Shown piece by piece: positions 1-39,402 of a stretch of 39,402 nucleotides of DNA. Numbering within the stretch: the first letter of the stretch is position 1; each line of letters starts with the position of its first letter. The stretch comes from a virus (lineage: Duplodnaviria > Heunggongvirae > Uroviricota > Caudoviricetes): IMG/VR virus record IMGVR_UViG_2541047754_000004; one strand, given 5' to 3'. The notes under the pieces are model-generated. The model saw nothing but the letters and a program-made list of their open reading frames with translations. It did not search any database and had not been told where the DNA came from. Made by a program: the position numbers and the translations under genes.

Positions 1-555
1 TCATTTATCTCCCACCGGAAACCTCTTATACAAAGTCGATATGCCAACATCATAGATGATCGCTACCTTCAGGCGAGGAACTCCTGATGCAATTAATCGT
101 CCGGCCTGTGCCCATTGTTCTGGTGTAAGTTTGGGACGTCGTCCACCAATTCGTCCCTGTGCGCGAGCAGCTTCCAGTCCTGCTTTTGTTCGTTCAACAA
201 TCAGTTCACGTTCCATTTCAGCCAGGGCCCCCATCACATGAAAGAAAAAGCGCCCCATTGGGGTACTGGTATCAATTGAATCCGTCAGACTACGAAAGTT
301 GATGCCTCGTTCGCGCAACTCCTCCACCAGCACGACAAGATGCCGCATACTGCGCCCCAGTCGGTCCAGTTTCCAGACCACCAGCGTGTCACCTGCCGAT
401 AATGTCCTGAGCAGCTTTTTCAGTCCTGGTCTGTCGGACTTTGTACCGCTTATCTTGTCTTCAAAAATCAGCTCACATCCTGCACAGTTCAGCGCATTAC
501 GTTGTAGATCGGTATTCTGGTCATTTGTTGATACACGTACATAGCCAATAAGCAT
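1..555 (-). CDS. pin: Serine recombinase, DNA invertase of the Pin/Gin/Hin/Cin family
   Basis: 184 aa; N-terminal MLIGYVRVSTNDQ with catalytic Ser, GDTLVVWKLDRLGRS motif and C-terminal HTH; near-identical in length and sequence to e14 Pin as recalled; ATG at 553-555, stop at 1-3. Confidence 0.92.
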   Translation of the reverse strand: MLIGYVRVSTNDQNTDLQRNALNCAGCELIFEDKISGTKSDRPGLKKLLRTLSAGDTLVVWKLDRLGRSMRHLVVLVEELRERGINFRSLTDSIDTSTPMGRFFFHVMGALAEMERELIVERTKAGLEAARAQGRIGGRRPKLTPEQWAQAGRLIASGVPRLKVAIIYDVGISTLYKRFPVGDK

Positions 556-26829: not shown

Positions 26830-26864
26830 ACAAACGAGGTTTGTCAAATACAACAAAAATTGTT
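26830..26864. promoter_or_regulatory. Putative operator palindromes in cI/cro divergent region
   Basis: ACAAAC-GAG-GTTTGT (26830-26844) and AACAA-AAA-TTGTT (26852-26864). Confidence 0.45.
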
Positions 26865-26910
26865 TTTAATGTGGGGATACACATTAATACAACCCAGAAG
26901 GACTAATCCC

Positions 26911-27534
26911 ATGTCTCTCGCAGCCCGTTTTAAAGCACGTCGTTTGGAATTAGGAATGACTCAAGTGGAAGTAGCGAATTCTGCAGGGGTTAGCCAACAA
27001 TCCATAGAATCCATCGAAAGTGGACGAACCAGAAAGCCACGCAATCTTCTGGATCTGGCTAAGGCCTTGAAATGTAGCCCAGACTGGCTACTGAACGGTA
27101 AAAATATTATGCCTCTCGCGGAGATAAGTACCAGACGCATACCTATATTAAGTTACGTTCAGGCAGGAGAGCTTACAGAAGCAAGAGACATAACAGATCT
27201 GACAGGGGAATTTGAATATATTTTGGCAGACTCTGACATTCCAGAAACATGCTTCGCATTACGTATCGATGGCGACAGCATGCAACCAGAGTTTAAAGAA
27301 GGAGACATTGTTATCATCGATCCTGATCTATGTCCTGCACCAGGGGAGTTTGTTGTCGCCAAAAACGACGGTCACGAAGCTACATTTAAAAAATACCGTC
27401 CATTAGGAATCGGCATCGACGACTTTGAATTAATCCCCCTAAATCCTGATTACCCTATTTTTCGTAGTGCAGATATGAACTTACAGATCATAGGTGTAAT
27501 GATCGAACACCGTATTTACCGCCGTAAACGTTAG
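26911..27534 (+). CDS. CI-like repressor, N-terminal HTH plus LexA-type S24 autopeptidase domain
   Basis: 207 aa from ATG at 26911 (AGAAGGA upstream); HTH QVEVANSAGVSQQSIESIESG; DGDSMQP catalytic Ser motif and downstream Lys. Confidence 0.88.
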   Translation: MSLAARFKARRLELGMTQVEVANSAGVSQQSIESIESGRTRKPRNLLDLAKALKCSPDWLLNGKNIMPLAEISTRRIPILSYVQAGELTEARDITDLTGEFEYILADSDIPETCFALRIDGDSMQPEFKEGDIVIIDPDLCPAPGEFVVAKNDGHEATFKKYRPLGIGIDDFELIPLNPDYPIFRSADMNLQIIGVMIEHRIYRRKR

Positions 27535-31099: not shown

Positions 31100-31600
31100 T
31101 CATTGAATTGGGGGCTGTTTAGATTCCTGTTCCTCTTTCAATGAACGAACTTTGCTATCATATATCCTGAGTGCATATTCGTTAATTTGCCTAGTTAAAT
31201 CGGAATCTAGCTTATAATATTTTTCAGCCCACTCAATTAAATTCTTCCTCATTATTATCTTCGGTTCAATTTTATTAATTCTATTTAAATGCATATCACG
31301 ACCGCGTTCAAAATTAAGATATGCTTGTTCACTAACGCCCTGTCCATCGATTGTGTAGGTAGTACCACTTGCACGGAAAGAGAGATGAGTCTTTTTACCA
31401 GCATATCTTTCATTATGTATAGCTTTATCGGTATTCACTATTCGAAGCCATGTCCAAAACTCATCATTAAGAATGTATTTATCAATTATTTTTAATATTA
31501 AAAAATCTCTACCTATTAGTAATAGAGGCATCAAAAAATAAACCCCAAGAAAACTCAACGCCGCTGTAATAATAGTTGAAAAAGATATTGATAACTCCAT
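31100..31600 (-). CDS. Membrane-anchored hypothetical protein (cargo gene)
   Basis: About 166 aa from ATG at 31600 (GGAG upstream); one N-terminal TM helix; AT-rich; opposite strand to flanking replication genes. Confidence 0.6.
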
Positions 31601-31621
31601 TTTACTCTCCAAAGGTTAGAC

Positions 31622-33692: not shown

Positions 33693-34721
33693 TCACTTAA
33701 AATCCCTAGATAACATCTGCGAAGCAGCTGATGCTGTATAAACTCCAGTATGTTTTATTTCTGCAGCTATTTTGTAGCCATCCTCCTTAAACTGCGTAAG
33801 CATTGAGCTTAAGGAACCAAGTTTTTTAGTATTCAACACCATTCTAACGACAGTTCCTTCATGATAATGACCTAACTCTATATGCTTCTTTCCGTGTTCA
33901 TCTAGATATATTGCATGGTCACCGCTACAAATAAGAAAACTACCGCCAAGTTTACATATACGGCTGATCATATAAAGGCCAAATCCCGAATTATGCCAAG
34001 GATTTCTTGTATTGATTCTCGCCCCCTTAAAATTTTTACTAGAAATAGATGGCATTAACGCTAACTGAATGGCTTCAGAATCATTATCAGCTTCTATATA
34101 AGGGTTCTTCGATAGAGATTTTTTCATTCCTATACCATTATCAGAAATTGTTATTTCAACACGGTCATAAGAAGGCCAATACTGTGCACAATATTCAATC
34201 ACCTTTGAATCACTATGTTCCACAACATTACGCATAATTTCCCTAATAGAAAATGTCAAAGCATCAATGAGGTCGCCTTCTTCTTGGCGAGCAAGAATCT
34301 TTGCTAATTTACCAGATCGTTCCTCAACTATCTCTTGCACCTCAGTATATTTATCGTTAGCTTCATCTATAACTGTTTGAACACGAAGAATTGTAAATGG
34401 AACAAAATTATTATTTCCATCTGTACATCCCGGTTCACGGCCATGCTTTAACCCGAAGGCTCGAAAGAATGCCATATTTGCGGCATAATCCTTATTCTCA
34501 TGCCCGCTACAAAAAAGTTTAAAACCATCAATGTTCTTTTTCTGTTTTCGATGGAAGTCTCGAATATGCTTAGCAACATAAACCATTGTAAATGGTTCAA
34601 TCCTTCCCATATGCGAAAAATCGATTGTTATTTGCTGTTGACCTGAATGTTTTTCAATTTCATTGCAAAAATTAAATATCTTTTCAGGATTACATGAAGA
34701 GGGAAATAAGATTCGTGACAT
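33693..34721 (-). CDS. GHKL (histidine-kinase-like) ATPase domain protein with unknown N-terminal domain (cargo gene)
   Basis: 342 aa; ATG at 34721 with AAGGA upstream; motifs RNVVEHS, ITISDNGIGM, NSGFGLYMISR; AT-rich; opposite strand. Confidence 0.7.
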   Translation of the reverse strand: MSRILFPSSCNPEKIFNFCNEIEKHSGQQQITIDFSHMGRIEPFTMVYVAKHIRDFHRKQKKNIDGFKLFCSGHENKDYAANMAFFRAFGLKHGREPGCTDGNNNFVPFTILRVQTVIDEANDKYTEVQEIVEERSGKLAKILARQEEGDLIDALTFSIREIMRNVVEHSDSKVIEYCAQYWPSYDRVEITISDNGIGMKKSLSKNPYIEADNDSEAIQLALMPSISSKNFKGARINTRNPWHNSGFGLYMISRICKLGGSFLICSGDHAIYLDEHGKKHIELGHYHEGTVVRMVLNTKKLGSLSSMLTQFKEDGYKIAAEIKHTGVYTASAASQMLSRDFK

Positions 34722-35081: not shown

Positions 35082-35879
35082 TTAATCCGTATTTTTAACA
35101 CGTGTTTCGAAACACTCTTTTAATTTAGCTATTTCCTTTTTAGAGGACATGACTGTGAATTTCATCCCTTTTAAATCATTAACAAATTCAAATTTTGCGC
35201 TATTGGACTCACAATCACCAACAACAAAACCACTACCAAATGAATTGAGCAACACTTTAGTATTACTACCATCTACCATATAATATTCGTTATTTTTAAA
35301 TGCAGTAACCTTCCCGAAGGTATAGCTCAATATCAATAATGTCATCACCCCTAAAGGAAAAGCTGATTTTAGGATTTTTAAATCGATATAATAAAATACG
35401 TCTTTATACTCTGCAAGCCTCCCAAATTTTCTAATGCTATCCATATGATGTTCGTGTCTCTTACTATGGATTGACGCGGACACCGCATTGTGGTAATTCA
35501 ACAAAAGCAGAGCAAATAATAAAATATCTCCAACACTCATCACAGAGGTTTCGGAGAAATAACCAAAAGGCCAATGGAATCCTATTATGTAAAAATTAGG
35601 TATTAGCATAACCACTATAAATATAATAAATGGAACATAATATTTCCCTTTCAAATCAAACATCAATGTCGCGTATAAGGCACCGAGAAATAAAAAACTA
35701 AAAAACAAAAGCCATACAGCCGAATACAATAGCGTATTTAAATCTATTTTAATAAAAAGGGCTGGATAGCCATAATACGATGCAACACCTTTCTGAAAAG
35801 AATATGCCATCGCATAAGCTAACGCTGAAAAAACAGTTAATAAAGAAACTTGTTTTGTAAGTATTTTTGCCAGGGGCAT
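35082..35879 (-). CDS. Polytopic membrane protein with soluble C-terminal domain (cargo gene)
   Basis: 265 aa; ATG at 35879 with GGAGG upstream; several hydrophobic helices in first about 150 aa; AT-rich; opposite strand. Confidence 0.65.
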   Translation of the reverse strand: MPLAKILTKQVSLLTVFSALAYAMAYSFQKGVASYYGYPALFIKIDLNTLLYSAVWLLFFSFLFLGALYATLMFDLKGKYYVPFIIFIVVMLIPNFYIIGFHWPFGYFSETSVMSVGDILLFALLLLNYHNAVSASIHSKRHEHHMDSIRKFGRLAEYKDVFYYIDLKILKSAFPLGVMTLLILSYTFGKVTAFKNNEYYMVDGSNTKVLLNSFGSGFVVGDCESNSAKFEFVNDLKGMKFTVMSSKKEIAKLKECFETRVKNTD

Positions 35880-35941
35880 ACCCGCCTCCGTTAGTTATAT
35901 ATAGAGAGAGAATTGACACATATTCTACCATAGGTATATTA

Positions 35942-37336
35942 ATGAATAACATATTCCACCCCCGACTTTATCAAAACCTCATAATCAATCACCAAACCGA
36001 CATTCTGCGCGGCAACATCTGGGCAGGGATGGGGATGGGTAAAACCGTAGCGACACTCACCACGCTGGAAGATCTTTTCATGGCTGGAGCAGAAACACAC
36101 CCCGCGCTGGTCCTCGCGCCGCTACGCGTTGCAGCAAGCACCTGGCCTGATGAAGCTGTTAAATGGGGGCATCTGCGTAATATTGAGGTACAGCCGATCA
36201 TCGGTAACGCCAAAGCGCGCTCTACGGCGCTGGCGAACAGCAACGCGAGCGTGTTCACCATCAACTACGATAACCTTGTCTGGCTGGTTGAAGAATTGGG
36301 AGAACGATGGCCGTTCGGAACTGTCATTCCAGATGAAAGCACCCGGCTAAAATCCTTCCGGCTGCGAGGTGGTGGTAAGCGCGCGGCGGCGCTGGGCAAA
36401 GTGGCGCATAAGTATGTCCGGCGCTGGATAAATCTCACCGGTACGCCAGCACCGAACGGCCTGGTAGATTTGTGGGGACAATCGTGGTTTGTGGACCAAG
36501 GGCAACGTCTCGGGCGCACTTACGGCGCGTTTACCTCACGCTGGTTCAACTCGATACAGTTTCCGGGACAGAGCTGGACTAAACTGGAACCTTTTGCTCA
36601 CTCACAGGGTGAAATACAGCGAGCATTAGCCGATGTGACCCTCTCGCTGGATGCGGCCGACTGGTTCGATATCAAAGACCCCATCCATAACGTAATCCGC
36701 GTGGATATGCCCCCGAAGGCCCGTCAGCAGTATCGTGAAATGGAAAAGGAAATGTTCCTCGAGCTGAATAGCGAAGGCATCGAAGCACCGAACGCCGCGG
36801 CAAAGACACTGAAGTGTCTTCAAATCGCTAGTGGCGCAGTATACACAGACGACACCGGAAGTTGGTCAGAACTGCATGACACCAAACTACAGGCGCTGGA
36901 CAGCATACTGACCGAAGCAGCTGGCGCACCTGTGCTGGTTGCTTATCACTGGAAACACGATCTTGAACGCTTGCTTAAAGCATTCCCTCGCGGTCGTCAC
37001 CTCGACCAGGATCCACAGACACTGCGCGACTGGAATTCCGGAAAGATTCCTGTTCTCTTTGCACACCCAGCCAGCGCGGGCCACGGCCTGAACATGCAGG
37101 ACGGCGGAAATATACTGGTATTTTTCTCACACTGGTGGGACCTGGAGCAATATCAGCAAATTATTGAACGTATCGGCCCCACCAGGCAGATACAGGCCGG
37201 ACACAATCGTCCGGTATTTATTCACCACATTATTGCTGCCGACACTATGGACGAAATGGTGATGGAGCGGCGCAACTCAAAACGAACAGTGCAGGACATC
37301 CTGCTCGATGCCATGAAAAAGAGAGGTATAGCATGA
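35942..37336 (+). CDS. SNF2/DEAD-like superfamily-2 helicase
   Basis: About 464 aa from ATG at 35942; GMGMGKT (motif I), VIPDES (II), LTGTP (III), AGHGLN (VI); start uncertain (ORF track gives TTG at 35867). Confidence 0.82.
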   Translation: MNNIFHPRLYQNLIINHQTDILRGNIWAGMGMGKTVATLTTLEDLFMAGAETHPALVLAPLRVAASTWPDEAVKWGHLRNIEVQPIIGNAKARSTALANSNASVFTINYDNLVWLVEELGERWPFGTVIPDESTRLKSFRLRGGGKRAAALGKVAHKYVRRWINLTGTPAPNGLVDLWGQSWFVDQGQRLGRTYGAFTSRWFNSIQFPGQSWTKLEPFAHSQGEIQRALADVTLSLDAADWFDIKDPIHNVIRVDMPPKARQQYREMEKEMFLELNSEGIEAPNAAAKTLKCLQIASGAVYTDDTGSWSELHDTKLQALDSILTEAAGAPVLVAYHWKHDLERLLKAFPRGRHLDQDPQTLRDWNSGKIPVLFAHPASAGHGLNMQDGGNILVFFSHWWDLEQYQQIIERIGPTRQIQAGHNRPVFIHHIIAADTMDEMVMERRNSKRTVQDILLDAMKKRGIA

Positions 37337-37533
37337 GCGAGAAACCCGACGATTTACTCACCCCGGATGAAGTATGCCAAAAGTTAGGTATTACACAGAA
37401 AACGCTATGTGAGTGGAATATTAAGCATCGTCATCGGGCTATCCTGGCACCAATTCGTTTCAGTGCAAAAGTAGTTCGTTATGAGCGCCGAAATGTCGAC
37501 GCTTTTATTCAAAAATGTCGCAGCCAGTATTAA
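37333..37533 (+). CDS. AlpA/Xis-like small DNA-binding protein (putative excisionase)
   Basis: 66 aa; LTPDEVCQKLGITQKTLCEW HTH; ATGA coupled to helicase; adjacent to integrase. Confidence 0.7.
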   Translation: MSEKPDDLLTPDEVCQKLGITQKTLCEWNIKHRHRAILAPIRFSAKVVRYERRNVDAFIQKCRSQY

Positions 37534-38933
37534 CCTCGCCGCCGTAGCAATGCCACCTGCGCAAGTATGCTCCGCTCGTGAGCCTCGAAAGCTTCGCGCT
37601 TTAACGCAATCTCTTCCTGCAAAATCTCATCAGAAAAGTCGTAATGTTCTGCCATCGGGTCATCTGACTTGCTGGAGTGGTGAAGGCAAAGGAGGCTGAT
37701 TTCCCTTCGGTCTGATCGGGAATAGCCTCTTTCCTTCATCAAGGCAATAACATTGCTCTTAAGGAATTTACGGCACATCGTATTAAATGCACCGTCTTTC
37801 CCTTTAACAGTCCCATCATGTTTTATTCCTTTTACAGCCCCATCCGGGCTGTATGTTTTCACTAGCTTATCCAGTGATCGTTTTGAAAATGGCTGCATTG
37901 GATCACGCGGCTGCAAAAATACATAATCCCTGTTGCACTCAGGAACTGAATCACGCCAGGCTTTCTGCTCGTCGATAATCCGCCGGATCTCAGGCGTTAT
38001 CGGCAGGCGGAAAGCCTTTTGTGTTTTCATAGCCCCTCGCATGCCGATAACCCCTTCCGGATAAACAATTTCACCAGCCTCCTCGTGAACGTAGTCCCAG
38101 CGCAGGTTATGGACATTAATCGGACGAACACCAGTGATGATCATGAAGCGAACAGCATTCTTCTGGTGTACAGAGGTGCAGGCAGCAACATTGAGCCAGA
38201 GTCGGGCGATTGATTCAATATCGGTAAAAAGCCGTGTGGGGGTAGGTTTCTGTACGCGGGAGGAAACATAATCATCTGGCAGACTGGCGGCAACATTGCG
38301 GCCGTTGCAAAGAGTAGGTGCGCAGAACTTCCAGAACCGACGGAGCTCGGCAAACAACTCCAGGGCGTTATTGTTCGAGCGAGTGGCGATCCACTCGTCC
38401 AGCACTTCCACCAGCCGACTGTATGTTACGTCGCTGAACACCTCGCGCTCGCCGAACGTTGATTTAATCCGGTCGATACGCACCCCGTAGGTTGTGAAAC
38501 TGTCCGGGCTCAGCTTCTGACGGGCTACTTTGGCTTTGAGGTCATCCCGGTACATTTCCAGCGCTGCATGTACGGACTCTGCCCGCAGTCCACCGTCAGC
38601 CATACCTAGTGCTTTTTCGCGCGCCAGCTGGATAGCGAGCTCCGGCCACTCGCCGAGCTTTTTACCTTTGAGGCCCATCTTTTTTGGAAACTCGGCGTAA
38701 AATGTAACCTTACCGGCTTTGCTGAAATCGATACGGAGATAGTTCTCTTTTTCGTATTTGGAACGGCGAGCCACGCCGGAAGCAGCGAGGATGATTTTGG
38801 CGGCAGCAACACAGATTTTCATGTGTGCGCTGGTATAGGGGGGTTTACAGGCATCCCATTTTTCAGAAGCGGCTAAAACATCGTCATTATTGGGGCTATC
38901 CGGATTATGTGTTACAGTGCGCGGCATTCTCAA
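37530..38933 (-). CDS. Tyrosine integrase (phage integrase family)
   Basis: 467 aa; AAGGA upstream of ATG at 38933; C-terminal catalytic region with R...H..R...Y-type spacing; last phage gene before chromosomal yfhL. Confidence 0.85.
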   Translation of the reverse strand: MRMPRTVTHNPDSPNNDDVLAASEKWDACKPPYTSAHMKICVAAAKIILAASGVARRSKYEKENYLRIDFSKAGKVTFYAEFPKKMGLKGKKLGEWPELAIQLAREKALGMADGGLRAESVHAALEMYRDDLKAKVARQKLSPDSFTTYGVRIDRIKSTFGEREVFSDVTYSRLVEVLDEWIATRSNNNALELFAELRRFWKFCAPTLCNGRNVAASLPDDYVSSRVQKPTPTRLFTDIESIARLWLNVAACTSVHQKNAVRFMIITGVRPINVHNLRWDYVHEEAGEIVYPEGVIGMRGAMKTQKAFRLPITPEIRRIIDEQKAWRDSVPECNRDYVFLQPRDPMQPFSKRSLDKLVKTYSPDGAVKGIKHDGTVKGKDGAFNTMCRKFLKSNVIALMKERGYSRSDRREISLLCLHHSSKSDDPMAEHYDFSDEILQEEIALKREAFEAHERSILAQVALLRRRG

Positions 38934-39132
38934 TCCTTATCTGCGTAGGCGCAGAAAACAAGCTCACACATACAAGTCTTTTCTACGGGACAAAATGCAA
39001 TGTGTTGCGGTTTTGTGTTGCTGGACTGAGTTTATCAAGGTTAAATACACTGGATCAACATACAGTAAGTTAATGACAGTCAAGCATACAAACTCGATAC
39101 AACTTACTGATTTTAAAATGATTTAACGGTAA

Positions 39133-39402
<270 letters not shown>

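What the first reader, a model, noticed from the sequence alone, without database searches (positions are those of the whole stretch)
37530..37533. Convergent integrase and Xis-like genes with overlapping stop codons
The plus-strand Xis-like gene ends at 37533 and the minus-strand integrase ends at 37530, so their 3' ends overlap by 4 nt with no terminator between them. Convergent transcription could cause mutual interference, which may help set the excision versus integration balance.
Basis: seen in the sequence. Interest (0 to 1): 0.2.

Follow-up and report, generated by a model that had tools for sequence, protein, structure and literature searches.

The report
Tail-to-tail prophage integrase and excisionase genes
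The two genes that insert and cut out an E. coli prophage do end back-to-back sharing four bases (TTAA), but this is the commonest way convergent bacterial genes abut, and nothing in the sequence shows that the overlap itself regulates anything.

Summary
A 66-aa helix-turn-helix gene (37333-37533, +) and a 465-aa tyrosine integrase gene (37530-38927, -) share the tetranucleotide TTAA at 37530-37533.

The window is an SOS-type E. coli prophage inserted in the 5' end of yfhL. It is present in 156 of 5426 complete E. coli genomes.

The small protein is best read as the cognate excisionase (RDF). It has an Xis/BldC-like winged-helix fold. It stays next to this integrase family even when the phage backbone changes.

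In 98 related loci the two genes are convergent whenever both are present. Seventy-eight loci keep a 4-nt overlap (TTAA or TTAG/CTAA), two have abutting stop codons, and about 15 carry cargo genes between them. Serratia phage vB_SspS_OS31, induced with mitomycin C and published, has the same layout.

Four-base convergent stop overlaps are a known common class. I found no conserved terminator and no extra synonymous constraint at the junction.

The likeliest mechanism is uncoupled control. The integrase is made from its own att-proximal promoter. Xis is the last gene of the derepressed early operon. Convergent interference is possible but untested, and the exact overlap is dispensable in relatives.

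This is an ordinary feature of low interest.

The parts
37333..37533 (+). 66-aa helix-turn-helix gene, the putative excisionase/RDF ('xis'). Its ATG overlaps the helicase stop codon (ATGA, 37333-37336).
   Evidence: Pfam HTH_17 E=1.3e-5 (25.8 bits, just under the cut-off of 27). phrog_4745 E=3.6e-27; phrog_66 and phrog_1553 'excisionase' hits are weak. AF2 model pLDDT 80.7. Best PDB fold matches are BldC, Pukovnik Xis, RdfS and the GIsul2 excisionase. Convergent with the integrase wherever both genes are present, which is 95 of the 98 related loci.
37530..38927 (-). 465-aa tyrosine integrase that targets yfhL.
   Evidence: PF00589 30.5 bits against a cut-off of 27.1. phrog_1 E=1.6e-26. R268, K301, R386 and H416/H417 are invariant and Y429 nearly invariant in alignment A3. 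Homologues sit beside a yfhL-like ferredoxin gene from Enterobacterales to Vibrionaceae, Shewanella and Thalassotalea.
37530..37533 (.). Shared tetranucleotide TTAA. It holds the xis stop (TAA, 37531-37533) and the int stop (complement of 37530-37532).
   Evidence: Kept as TTAA or TTAG/CTAA in 78 of 98 related loci.
35942..37336 (+). SNF2-type helicase gene, the gene before xis in the early (+ strand) operon.
   Evidence: PF00176 E=1.7e-11. phrog_62 E=7.9e-154. The ATGA junction with xis is visible in the sequence.
38928..39171 (-). Region upstream of int, which is also the int-proximal att arm; presumed to hold the int promoter. It carries conserved motifs: CAACACA twice (39020-39014 and 39007-39001); TATGTGTGAGC (38972-38962, an inverted copy of the core half-site); and the inverted repeat CAGTAAGTT/AACTTACTG (39063-71 / 39101-09) around TTGACT (39084-39079).
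   Evidence: The CAACACA pair and the TATGTGTGAGC motif are conserved in relatives as distant as Veronia and Motilimonas. Promoter function is inferred, not shown.
39172..39189 (.). att core AATTGTGATATGTGTGAA (the attR copy), lying inside yfhL.
   Evidence: The same 18 nt stand at the left junction of the related prophage (L002, about 2340-2357) and in empty K-12 yfhL. Phage OS31 has its 23-bp att at the homologous codons.
39142..39402 (+). Host gene yfhL (4Fe-4S ferredoxin). Its first 10 codons (39142-39171) come from the phage.
   Evidence: [10 protein letters not shown] in the window against MALLITKKCI in K-12.
37833..37853 (+). Terminator-like hairpin (8-bp stem followed by UGUUUUCAC), antisense within int. 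It is specific to this lineage.
   Evidence: z = -4.18. Absent from 10 relatives.

Best explanation
This is the integration/excision module of an SOS-inducible E. coli prophage that inserts into the 5' end of yfhL. The integrase gene lies next to the att site and is read inward from its own promoter in the att arm. The 66-aa winged-helix gene is the cognate excisionase (RDF). It is the last, translationally coupled gene of the early + strand operon (cI-side promoter, then recombination and replication genes, then helicase, then xis).

Int and Xis are therefore made from separate, uncoupled transcription units. Int would be made at a low, probably self-limited level in the lysogen. Xis would be made only after the S24-type repressor is cleaved. 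Xis synthesis would thus be the excision switch, as in the KplE1 IntS/TorI paradigm.

The TTAA overlap is tight tail-to-tail packing inherited from the ancestor of this cassette. It is held in place because any change would alter both proteins' ends. It is not a dedicated regulatory device. Once past each stop codon, the untranslated antisense transcripts are probably ended by Rho or decay; in this E. coli lineage the 37833 hairpin may also contribute.

Shown here: gene identities, geometry, conservation, the att site and the operon layout. Inferred: promoter positions, autoregulation, RDF activity and the fate of the transcripts.
For: - Geometry and annotation.
- Prophage and att site: empty K-12 site against the occupied site, with an 18-nt direct repeat.
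- Repressor carries HTH and Peptidase_S24 domains; the + strand early operon runs from about 28.3 kb to xis.
- The xis ATG overlaps the helicase stop. In relatives xis is likewise the last gene of a co-directional operon, although the upstream gene differs: helicase, exonuclease or primase.
- Xis-like fold.
- The xis-int cassette is conserved on different phage backbones and is always at yfhL.
- Serratia phage OS31 is mitomycin-inducible and has the same int/excisionase 4-nt overlap and a ferredoxin-gene att site (PMC7556043).
- Motifs in the int upstream region/att arm are conserved across genera.
- The KplE1 paradigm of an att-overlapping, autoregulated int promoter with uncoupled RDF expression (PMC2951348).
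- 4-nt convergent overlaps are a common class (PMC2174442).
- The overlap is dispensable in relatives, and there is no extra synonymous constraint at the int 3' end.
Against: - No expression data. The int promoter is only a weak match (TTGACT-15 nt-TATGTT), and the standard scan found none in the arm.
- The small protein falls just below the curated cut-offs for HTH_17 and for TIGR01764 'excise'. PDB fold matches are modest (E >= 6e-3, TM 0.6-0.7). RDF activity is therefore inferred from fold and linkage only.
- No conserved terminator exists on either strand, so substantial convergent read-through, and hence some interference, remains possible.
- The 4-nt form survives in 7 of 11 integrase lineages despite variable C-terminal tails. 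This could also reflect selection for the tight junction.
Confidence: 0.7

Rival explanations
1. The tail-to-tail arrangement acts as a cis-antisense, RNA-polymerase-collision switch. After induction, early-operon transcripts run past xis into int as antisense RNA and lower new Int synthesis. In the lysogen, read-through from the int promoter runs antisense through xis and damps leaky Xis. Together these would tune the Int:Xis ratio.
For: - The convergent orientation is kept in every related locus that holds both genes.
- No intrinsic terminator is conserved downstream of either stop.
- In L013 a cargo gene starts 1 nt after the int stop, so int transcripts continue beyond int there.
- All cargo genes at the junction are co-oriented with int.
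Against: - The exact overlap is lost in about 17 of 98 loci, where up to 1.9 kb has been inserted.
- There is no synonymous constraint at the int 3' end.
- This E. coli lineage has a good terminator-like hairpin 300 nt into int on the + strand.
- The first 80 nt after the xis stop are C-rich and G-poor (C/G 1.7). By established knowledge of Rho, such untranslated antisense RNA is a typical Rho substrate.
- Int is also needed for excision, so strong antisense repression of int at induction would be counter-productive.
- No experimental data exist.
Confidence: 0.2
2. The 66-aa protein is not an excisionase. It would instead be an AlpA/Vis-like transcriptional regulator, for example of the int promoter or of early genes, or a generic DNA-binding accessory of the early operon.
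For: - The best PHROG hit is annotated only 'DNA binding protein' (phrog_4745), and PGAP calls it 'helix-turn-helix transcriptional regulator'.
- It falls below the curated cut-offs for HTH_17 and for TIGR01764.
- One locus (L011) has the gene with no integrase within the 4-kb flanks fetched.
- Fold matches include MerR-type regulators and BldC.
Against: - Its linkage follows the integrase, not the upstream gene, which changes between helicase, exonuclease and primase.
- The fold also matches bona fide excisionases: Pukovnik Xis, RdfS and the GIsul2 excisionase.
- No other Xis candidate lies next to int.
- Several known RDFs, such as Apl, Cox and Vis, are also regulators, so the two roles do not exclude each other (PMC7498355 abstract).
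Confidence: 0.12
3. The overlap is an artefact of ORF calling, in that one of the two reading frames really ends or starts elsewhere.
For: The ORF list is purely mechanical. The integrase start is ambiguous by 2 codons: TTG 38933 against ATG 38927.
Against: Both stop codons are fixed by the sequence. Both C-termini align end-to-end with homologues (A2 and A3). Independent annotations give the same ends.
Confidence: 0.01

Closest known systems
Serratia phage vB_SspS_OS31 integrase phiOS31_p01 and excisionase phiOS31_p02 (MT843276; PMC7556043)
   Same: The integrase is 76% identical. An HTH_17 'excisionase' is convergent with it and overlaps by 4 nt (263-1660 against 1657-1872). Its att site is in the homologous codons of the yfhL-type ferredoxin gene, and the phage supplies a replacement N-terminus. 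The phage was induced with mitomycin C.
   Different: The backbone is a lambdoid siphovirus (Hendrixvirinae). The gene upstream of xis is a DnaQ-like exonuclease, not an SNF2 helicase. The authors did not comment on the overlap or on regulation.
KplE1 / HK620 / Sf6 recombination module (IntS and the RDF TorI; Panis et al. 2010, PMC2951348)
   Same: The int gene lies next to the att site and is read from a dedicated promoter inside the recombination arm. Int and RDF transcription are uncoupled, and RDF expression is the excision switch. This is the functional model adopted here.
   Different: In Sf6 attP lies between the RDF gene and int, and both genes are on the same strand. After integration they therefore end up at opposite prophage ends. 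Here the two genes are adjacent and convergent on one side of att. The integrase and RDF families are unrelated in sequence, and the target is argW rather than yfhL.
Lambda int-xis (PL operon, PI promoter, sib retroregulation)
   Same: xis is a distal gene of the early operon on the cI side. The repressor is an SOS-cleavable S24 type. Differential control of Int against Xis is needed. The lambda details are established knowledge, summarised in PMC2951348.
   Different: In lambda, xis and int are co-directional, overlapping and co-transcribed, with sib beyond attP. Here int is inverted and cannot be on the early transcript.
Generic 4-nt convergent stop-codon overlaps (Lillo & Krakauer 2007, PMC2174442)
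   Same: TTAA is one of the four tetramers (CTAA, TTAA, CTAG, TTAG) that end two convergent genes. About a third of convergent overlaps are this short.
   Different: None in geometry. Here the pair are functional partners that travel together as a mobile cassette.
Mycobacteriophage L5 int (gp33) and xis (gp36), recalled from memory and not tested here
   Same: The integrase next to attP is read toward the end of the opposing early operon, and that operon carries xis near its distal end.
   Different: Other genes lie between them and there is no stop-codon overlap. The protein families are unrelated.

Membership tests
Tyrosine recombinase / phage integrase (PF00589) | Profile match above the curated threshold | tested here: met
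   PF00589 scores 30.5 bits against a cut-off of 27.1, covering only residues 248-361. phrog_1 'integrase' E=1.6e-26. There is no NCBIfam hit and no PDB sequence hit at E<0.01.
Tyrosine recombinase / phage integrase (PF00589) | Catalytic residues: Arg, Lys, (His-x-x-)Arg, His/Trp and the Tyr nucleophile | tested here: inconclusive
   R268, K301, R386 and H416/H417 are invariant and Y429 nearly invariant in alignment A3, which spans 37-79% identity. I assigned them to catalytic roles by order and spacing only. The His of HxxR appears to be replaced: the invariant residues F381 N382 T383 C385 R386 K387 read FNT-CRK, with residue 384 varying. No structural superposition was done.
Tyrosine recombinase / phage integrase (PF00589) | Element bounded by direct repeats of a specific att core | tested here: met
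   The 18-nt AATTGTGATATGTGTGAA stands at attR (window 39172-39189), at attL of the related prophage (L002) and once in empty K-12 yfhL.
Excisionase / RDF of the winged-helix (HTH_17, MerR-like 'excise') type | Small (about 55-80 aa) winged-helix DNA-binding fold | tested here: met
   AF2 model pLDDT 80.7, with a helix-helix-strand-helix layout. Foldseek top hits are BldC 6ama/6amk, Pukovnik Xis 4j2n, RdfS 8dgl and the GIsul2 excisionase 8c3t, at TM 0.6-0.7.
Excisionase / RDF of the winged-helix (HTH_17, MerR-like 'excise') type | Profile match above the curated threshold | tested here: not met
   HTH_17 scores 25.8 bits against a cut-off of 27. TIGR01764 scores 16.6 against 28.8. Several homologues do carry a precomputed PF12728 hit.
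Excisionase / RDF of the winged-helix (HTH_17, MerR-like 'excise') type | Genetic linkage to a cognate integrase | tested here: met
   95 of the 98 related loci hold both genes, always convergent. The linkage persists across different upstream genes and phage types.
Excisionase / RDF of the winged-helix (HTH_17, MerR-like 'excise') type | Directs Int toward attL x attR recombination | not testable with these tools
   This needs an in vivo excision assay or an in vitro recombination assay.
4-nt convergent stop-codon overlap class | One of TTAA, CTAA, TTAG or CTAG holding both stop codons | tested here: met
   TTAA at 37530-37533. The class is defined in PMC2174442.
KplE1-type recombination module (Panis 2010) | int lies next to att and is read away from it, so its promoter lies in the recombination arm | tested here: met
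   The int ATG is at 38927 and the core at 39172-39189, so 244 nt of conserved arm lie between them. The promoter itself has not been mapped.
KplE1-type recombination module (Panis 2010) | attP lies between the RDF gene and int, so the two genes are split to opposite prophage ends | tested here: not met
   Sf6 has this layout. Here both genes are on the same side of att and adjacent.
KplE1-type recombination module (Panis 2010) | Negative regulation of int by Int and by the RDF | not testable with these tools
   This needs reporter fusions or footprinting.
Lambda-type int-xis operon | xis and int co-directional and co-transcribed, with a downstream retroregulator | tested here: not met
   The genes are on opposite strands. 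Rfam finds nothing in 35800-39402.

The most novel reading that the evidence does not exclude
The conserved tail-to-tail junction is a true bidirectional antisense 'latch'. Read-through from the constitutive int promoter silences leaky xis in lysogens, and the same read-through expresses the cargo genes that have repeatedly been inserted at exactly this junction. After SOS induction, early-operon read-through shuts off new Int synthesis. Together these would make excision a one-shot event that uses pre-made Int.
Probability: 0.12. Interest if true: 0.45.

Novelty: new member of a known kind. Interest (0 to 1): 0.13.

Why it matters
It matters little beyond annotation. The analysis gives a clean description of a widespread integration cassette that targets yfhL. 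The cassette is an integrase plus a probable RDF. It repairs the gene it interrupts, and it moves between unrelated phage backbones in Enterobacterales and beyond.

If the convergent layout did tune the Int:Xis ratio, it would add a simple antisense variant to the known ways phages uncouple integrase and excisionase expression. It would also explain why cargo genes accumulate at the junction. That idea is untested, and relatives show that the overlap itself is dispensable.

Tried and rejected
- I looked for a conserved intrinsic terminator downstream of either stop codon in the window plus 10 relatives. Only the window has the +300 hairpin, so a conserved embedded terminator is rejected.
- Folding of the junction itself gave nothing. 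The + strand 37500-37620 has z = +1.15. The - strand 37440-37560 has z = -1.9, with a hairpin but no U-tract.
- Rfam, searched at E <= 1 over 35800-39402, gave no match.
- I looked for excess synonymous conservation at the int 3' end as a sign of an overlapping RNA element and found none.
- A PDB sequence search with the integrase gave no hit at E < 0.01.
- GenBank 'phage' records were tried as comparators. ON470579, ON470582 and ON470588 match the window only up to the helicase stop codon. ON470579, the one examined, carries host genes and ends there, lacking int and xis, so they were no use for the junction.
- C/G composition downstream of the stops, taken as a proxy for Rho utilisation sites, is only weakly suggestive on the + strand and flat on the - strand.
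- The hypothesis that the small gene belongs to the helicase/replication module was rejected. The upstream gene varies while the integrase partner does not.

Full report
**Observation.** The ORF list and the raw sequence show a + strand ORF at 37333..37533 (66 aa) ending in TAA at 37531-37533. They also show a - strand ORF whose stop codon is the complement of 37530-37532. PGAP annotation of E. coli genomes 99% and 97% identical to the window gives the same pair with the same 4-nt overlap: a 'helix-turn-helix transcriptional regulator' of 201 nt and a 'tyrosine-type recombinase/integrase' of 1398 nt. The integrase start is best placed at ATG 38927, which has an AAGGA Shine-Dalgarno sequence upstream, rather than at the TTG at 38933.

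**Context.** The window is a roughly 39-kb prophage.
- It carries a DNA invertase and tail, head, terminase and lysis genes.
- It has Q, a VapE-type primase and cro on the - strand.
- An HTH plus Peptidase_S24 repressor at 26860-27534 lies on the + strand. It is followed by a + strand early operon: DUF2800 nuclease, Enc34-type SSB, family A DNA polymerase, VRR-NUC and an SNF2 helicase. The operon ends with the 66-aa gene.
- The small gene's ATG overlaps the helicase stop codon (ATGA, 37333-37336).
- The window ends in the host gene yfhL.

Comparison with K-12, where the site is empty, and with the left junction of a related prophage defines an 18-nt att core, AATTGTGATATGTGTGAA, at window 39172-39189 inside yfhL. 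The phage supplies substitute first codons for yfhL. The element covers at least 80% of the query in 156 of 5426 complete E. coli genomes. yfhL is already cited as a prophage integration site.

**What the two genes are.**
- The - strand protein passes the Pfam Phage_integrase threshold. R268, K301, R386 and H416/H417 are invariant and Y429 nearly invariant across homologues down to 37% identity. Its family runs from Enterobacterales to Vibrionaceae, Shewanella and Thalassotalea. Wherever context was retrieved, it sits divergently beside a yfhL-like ferredoxin gene.
- The small protein falls just under the curated HTH_17 and TIGR01764 cut-offs. It folds with pLDDT 80.7 into a winged helix. Its best PDB matches are BldC, mycobacteriophage Pukovnik Xis, RdfS and the GIsul2 excisionase.
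- Its family is narrow: 24 clusters, with every organism named by a source an Enterobacterales member.
- Its genomic partner is the integrase, not the upstream gene. Upstream it has a helicase in some phages, a DnaQ-like exonuclease in lambdoid ones and a Toprim primase in a Veronia element. The integrase is always convergent downstream.

I therefore accept 'Xis-like' as the best reading. Its biochemical activity remains unshown.

**Conservation of the arrangement.** I examined 98 related loci: 12 from genomes, 80 from IMG/VR, 5 from contig look-ups and phage OS31.
- Every locus that holds both genes has them convergent.
- 78 keep a 4-nt overlap. It is TTAA in most, and TTAG/CTAA in Providencia, Motilimonas and some enterobacterial lineages. 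That variant is a change silent in both frames (Tyr TAT to TAC, stop TAA to TAG).
- Two have abutting stop codons.
- About 15 have 174-1871 nt between the genes. One of these (L101) is a frameshifted int that still ends in the TTAA.
- Most of the 78 are near-identical E. coli prophages. After clustering the integrases at 80% identity there are 11 lineages, and 7 of them contain the 4-nt form.
- In the gapped loci apart from L101, the inserted DNA carries cargo genes, all on the int strand. These are a 126-129-aa secreted protein, a 237-aa membrane protein that starts 1 nt after the int stop, a KAP NTPase, and a 304-314-aa protein.
- Serratia phage vB_SspS_OS31 was obtained by mitomycin C induction and published with 'tyrosine integrase' and 'excisionase' annotations. 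It has the identical 4-nt overlap and an att site in the homologous ferredoxin codons.

**Is the overlap special?** Four-base convergent overlaps built from TTAA, CTAA, TTAG or CTAG are a recognised peak in the length distribution of convergent overlaps. In one survey 1890 convergent overlaps were counted, of which 1218 were 5 nt or longer (PMC2174442). Other convergent gene ends in this same phage are packed within 7-12 nt: DNA polymerase against the HATPase gene, and VRR-NUC against the 265-aa gene. I found several points against a dedicated element at the junction:
- No intrinsic terminator is conserved on either strand.
- The one good hairpin (37833-37853, + strand) is confined to this E. 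coli lineage.
- Nothing in Rfam matches.
- Synonymous-codon identity in the last 50 int codons (0.44-0.47) equals the gene-wide mean of 0.444.

The persistence of the overlap is adequately explained by common descent and by the fact that any indel or substitution there changes both proteins' ends.

**Mechanism.** The layout is a lambda-like early operon on the cI side with xis as its distal gene, but with int inverted.
- Int cannot be made from the early transcript. It must come from a promoter in the 244 nt between the att core and the int ATG.
- That arm carries motifs conserved from E. coli to Veronia and Motilimonas: two CAACACA copies, and TATGTGTGAGC, an inverted copy of the core half-site.
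- This fits the KplE1 IntS/TorI paradigm. There the int promoter overlaps the recombination region, Int is made constantly at a low and self-limited level, RDF transcription is uncoupled, and RDF synthesis is the excision switch (PMC2951348).
- It is not a member of that module. In Sf6 attP lies between the RDF gene and int, both on the same strand, and the proteins are unrelated.

After each stop codon the transcripts become untranslated antisense RNA. From established knowledge of Rho, this is its preferred substrate. The first 80 nt after the xis stop are C-rich and G-poor, with a C/G ratio of 1.7, but this is only suggestive.

Convergent transcription with some read-through is plausible: no terminator is conserved, and cargo genes are co-transcribed with int in relatives. 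It cannot be evaluated without transcript mapping. The exact 4-nt overlap is clearly not required, since relatives with kilobase insertions keep the same genes. I give a measurable regulatory role about 0.2.

**Verdict.** The feature is an ordinary, already-annotated kind of integration module with the commonest type of convergent overlap. The regulatory interpretation is speculative. Interest is low.

Noticed in passing
window 39142-39189 (attR); L002 about 2310-2360 (attL); L017 1-50: The prophage integrates inside the 5' coding end of yfhL, at the codons for CINCDMCE. It carries a substitute start codon and first 10 codons ([10 protein letters not shown] against host MALLITKKCI) and presumably a promoter, so the ferredoxin gene stays intact. 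Serratia phage OS31 has the same design.
   Followed up: yes
L005 1697-2219; L013 4187-4905; L019 4411-6281; L075-L078 and L080-L084; L097; L103: The int/xis junction is a recurrent insertion point for cargo genes. These are a secreted 126-129-aa protein, a 237-aa membrane protein, a KAP NTPase and a 304-314-aa protein. All are co-oriented with int and lie downstream of it.
   Followed up: partly
window 38962-39109 (- strand): Motifs lie between the att core and the int start: CAACACA twice (39020-39014 and 39007-39001), TATGTGTGAGC (38972-38962, an inverted copy of the core half-site), and a 9-bp inverted repeat (39063-71 / 39101-09) bracketing TTGACT. The CAACACA pair and the TATGTGTGAGC motif are conserved across genera. 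They are likely Int or RDF binding sites overlapping the int promoter.
   Followed up: partly
window 35913-35944: A near-consensus sigma-70 promoter (TTGACA, 16 nt, TATATT; 11 of 12 matches) ends 1 nt before the helicase ATG at 35942. That is too close to serve that start codon conventionally. It may be a chance match, a leaderless start or an internal promoter.
   Followed up: no
window 31100-31612, 33693-34721, 35082-35879 (all - strand): Three opposite-strand genes are interleaved in the + strand replication operon. One is a HATPase_c protein with a weak DrmA-like PADLOC hit (E=2.9e-8). In E. coli IAI1 the slot after the DNA polymerase holds a TIR-domain gene instead. This looks like a variable accessory or defence slot.
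   Followed up: partly
L002 (ON470579.1) 1-2254 and 41349-42743: GenBank 'complete phage genome' ON470579 includes the host genes tadA, pgpC and yfhH and stops at the helicase stop codon, lacking xis and int. It looks like a mis-delimited prophage prediction. ON470582 and ON470588 match the window over the same range only (up to the helicase stop) and may be the same.
   Followed up: partly
window 37530-38927 (integrase): This is an atypical tyrosine recombinase. It is 465 aa long, and Pfam covers only residues 248-361. There is no PDB sequence relative at E<0.01. The His of the HxxR box appears to be replaced: the invariant residues F381 N382 T383 C385 R386 K387 read FNT-CRK, with residue 384 varying. 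Synonymous conservation is raised at the 5' end (aa 12-61: 0.56-0.57 against a mean of 0.44).
   Followed up: partly
window 1-555 (- strand): A Resolvase/HTH_7 DNA invertase sits at the window start, next to the tail-fibre genes. This is probably a Gin/Cin-type host-range switch. attL lies outside the window.
   Followed up: no
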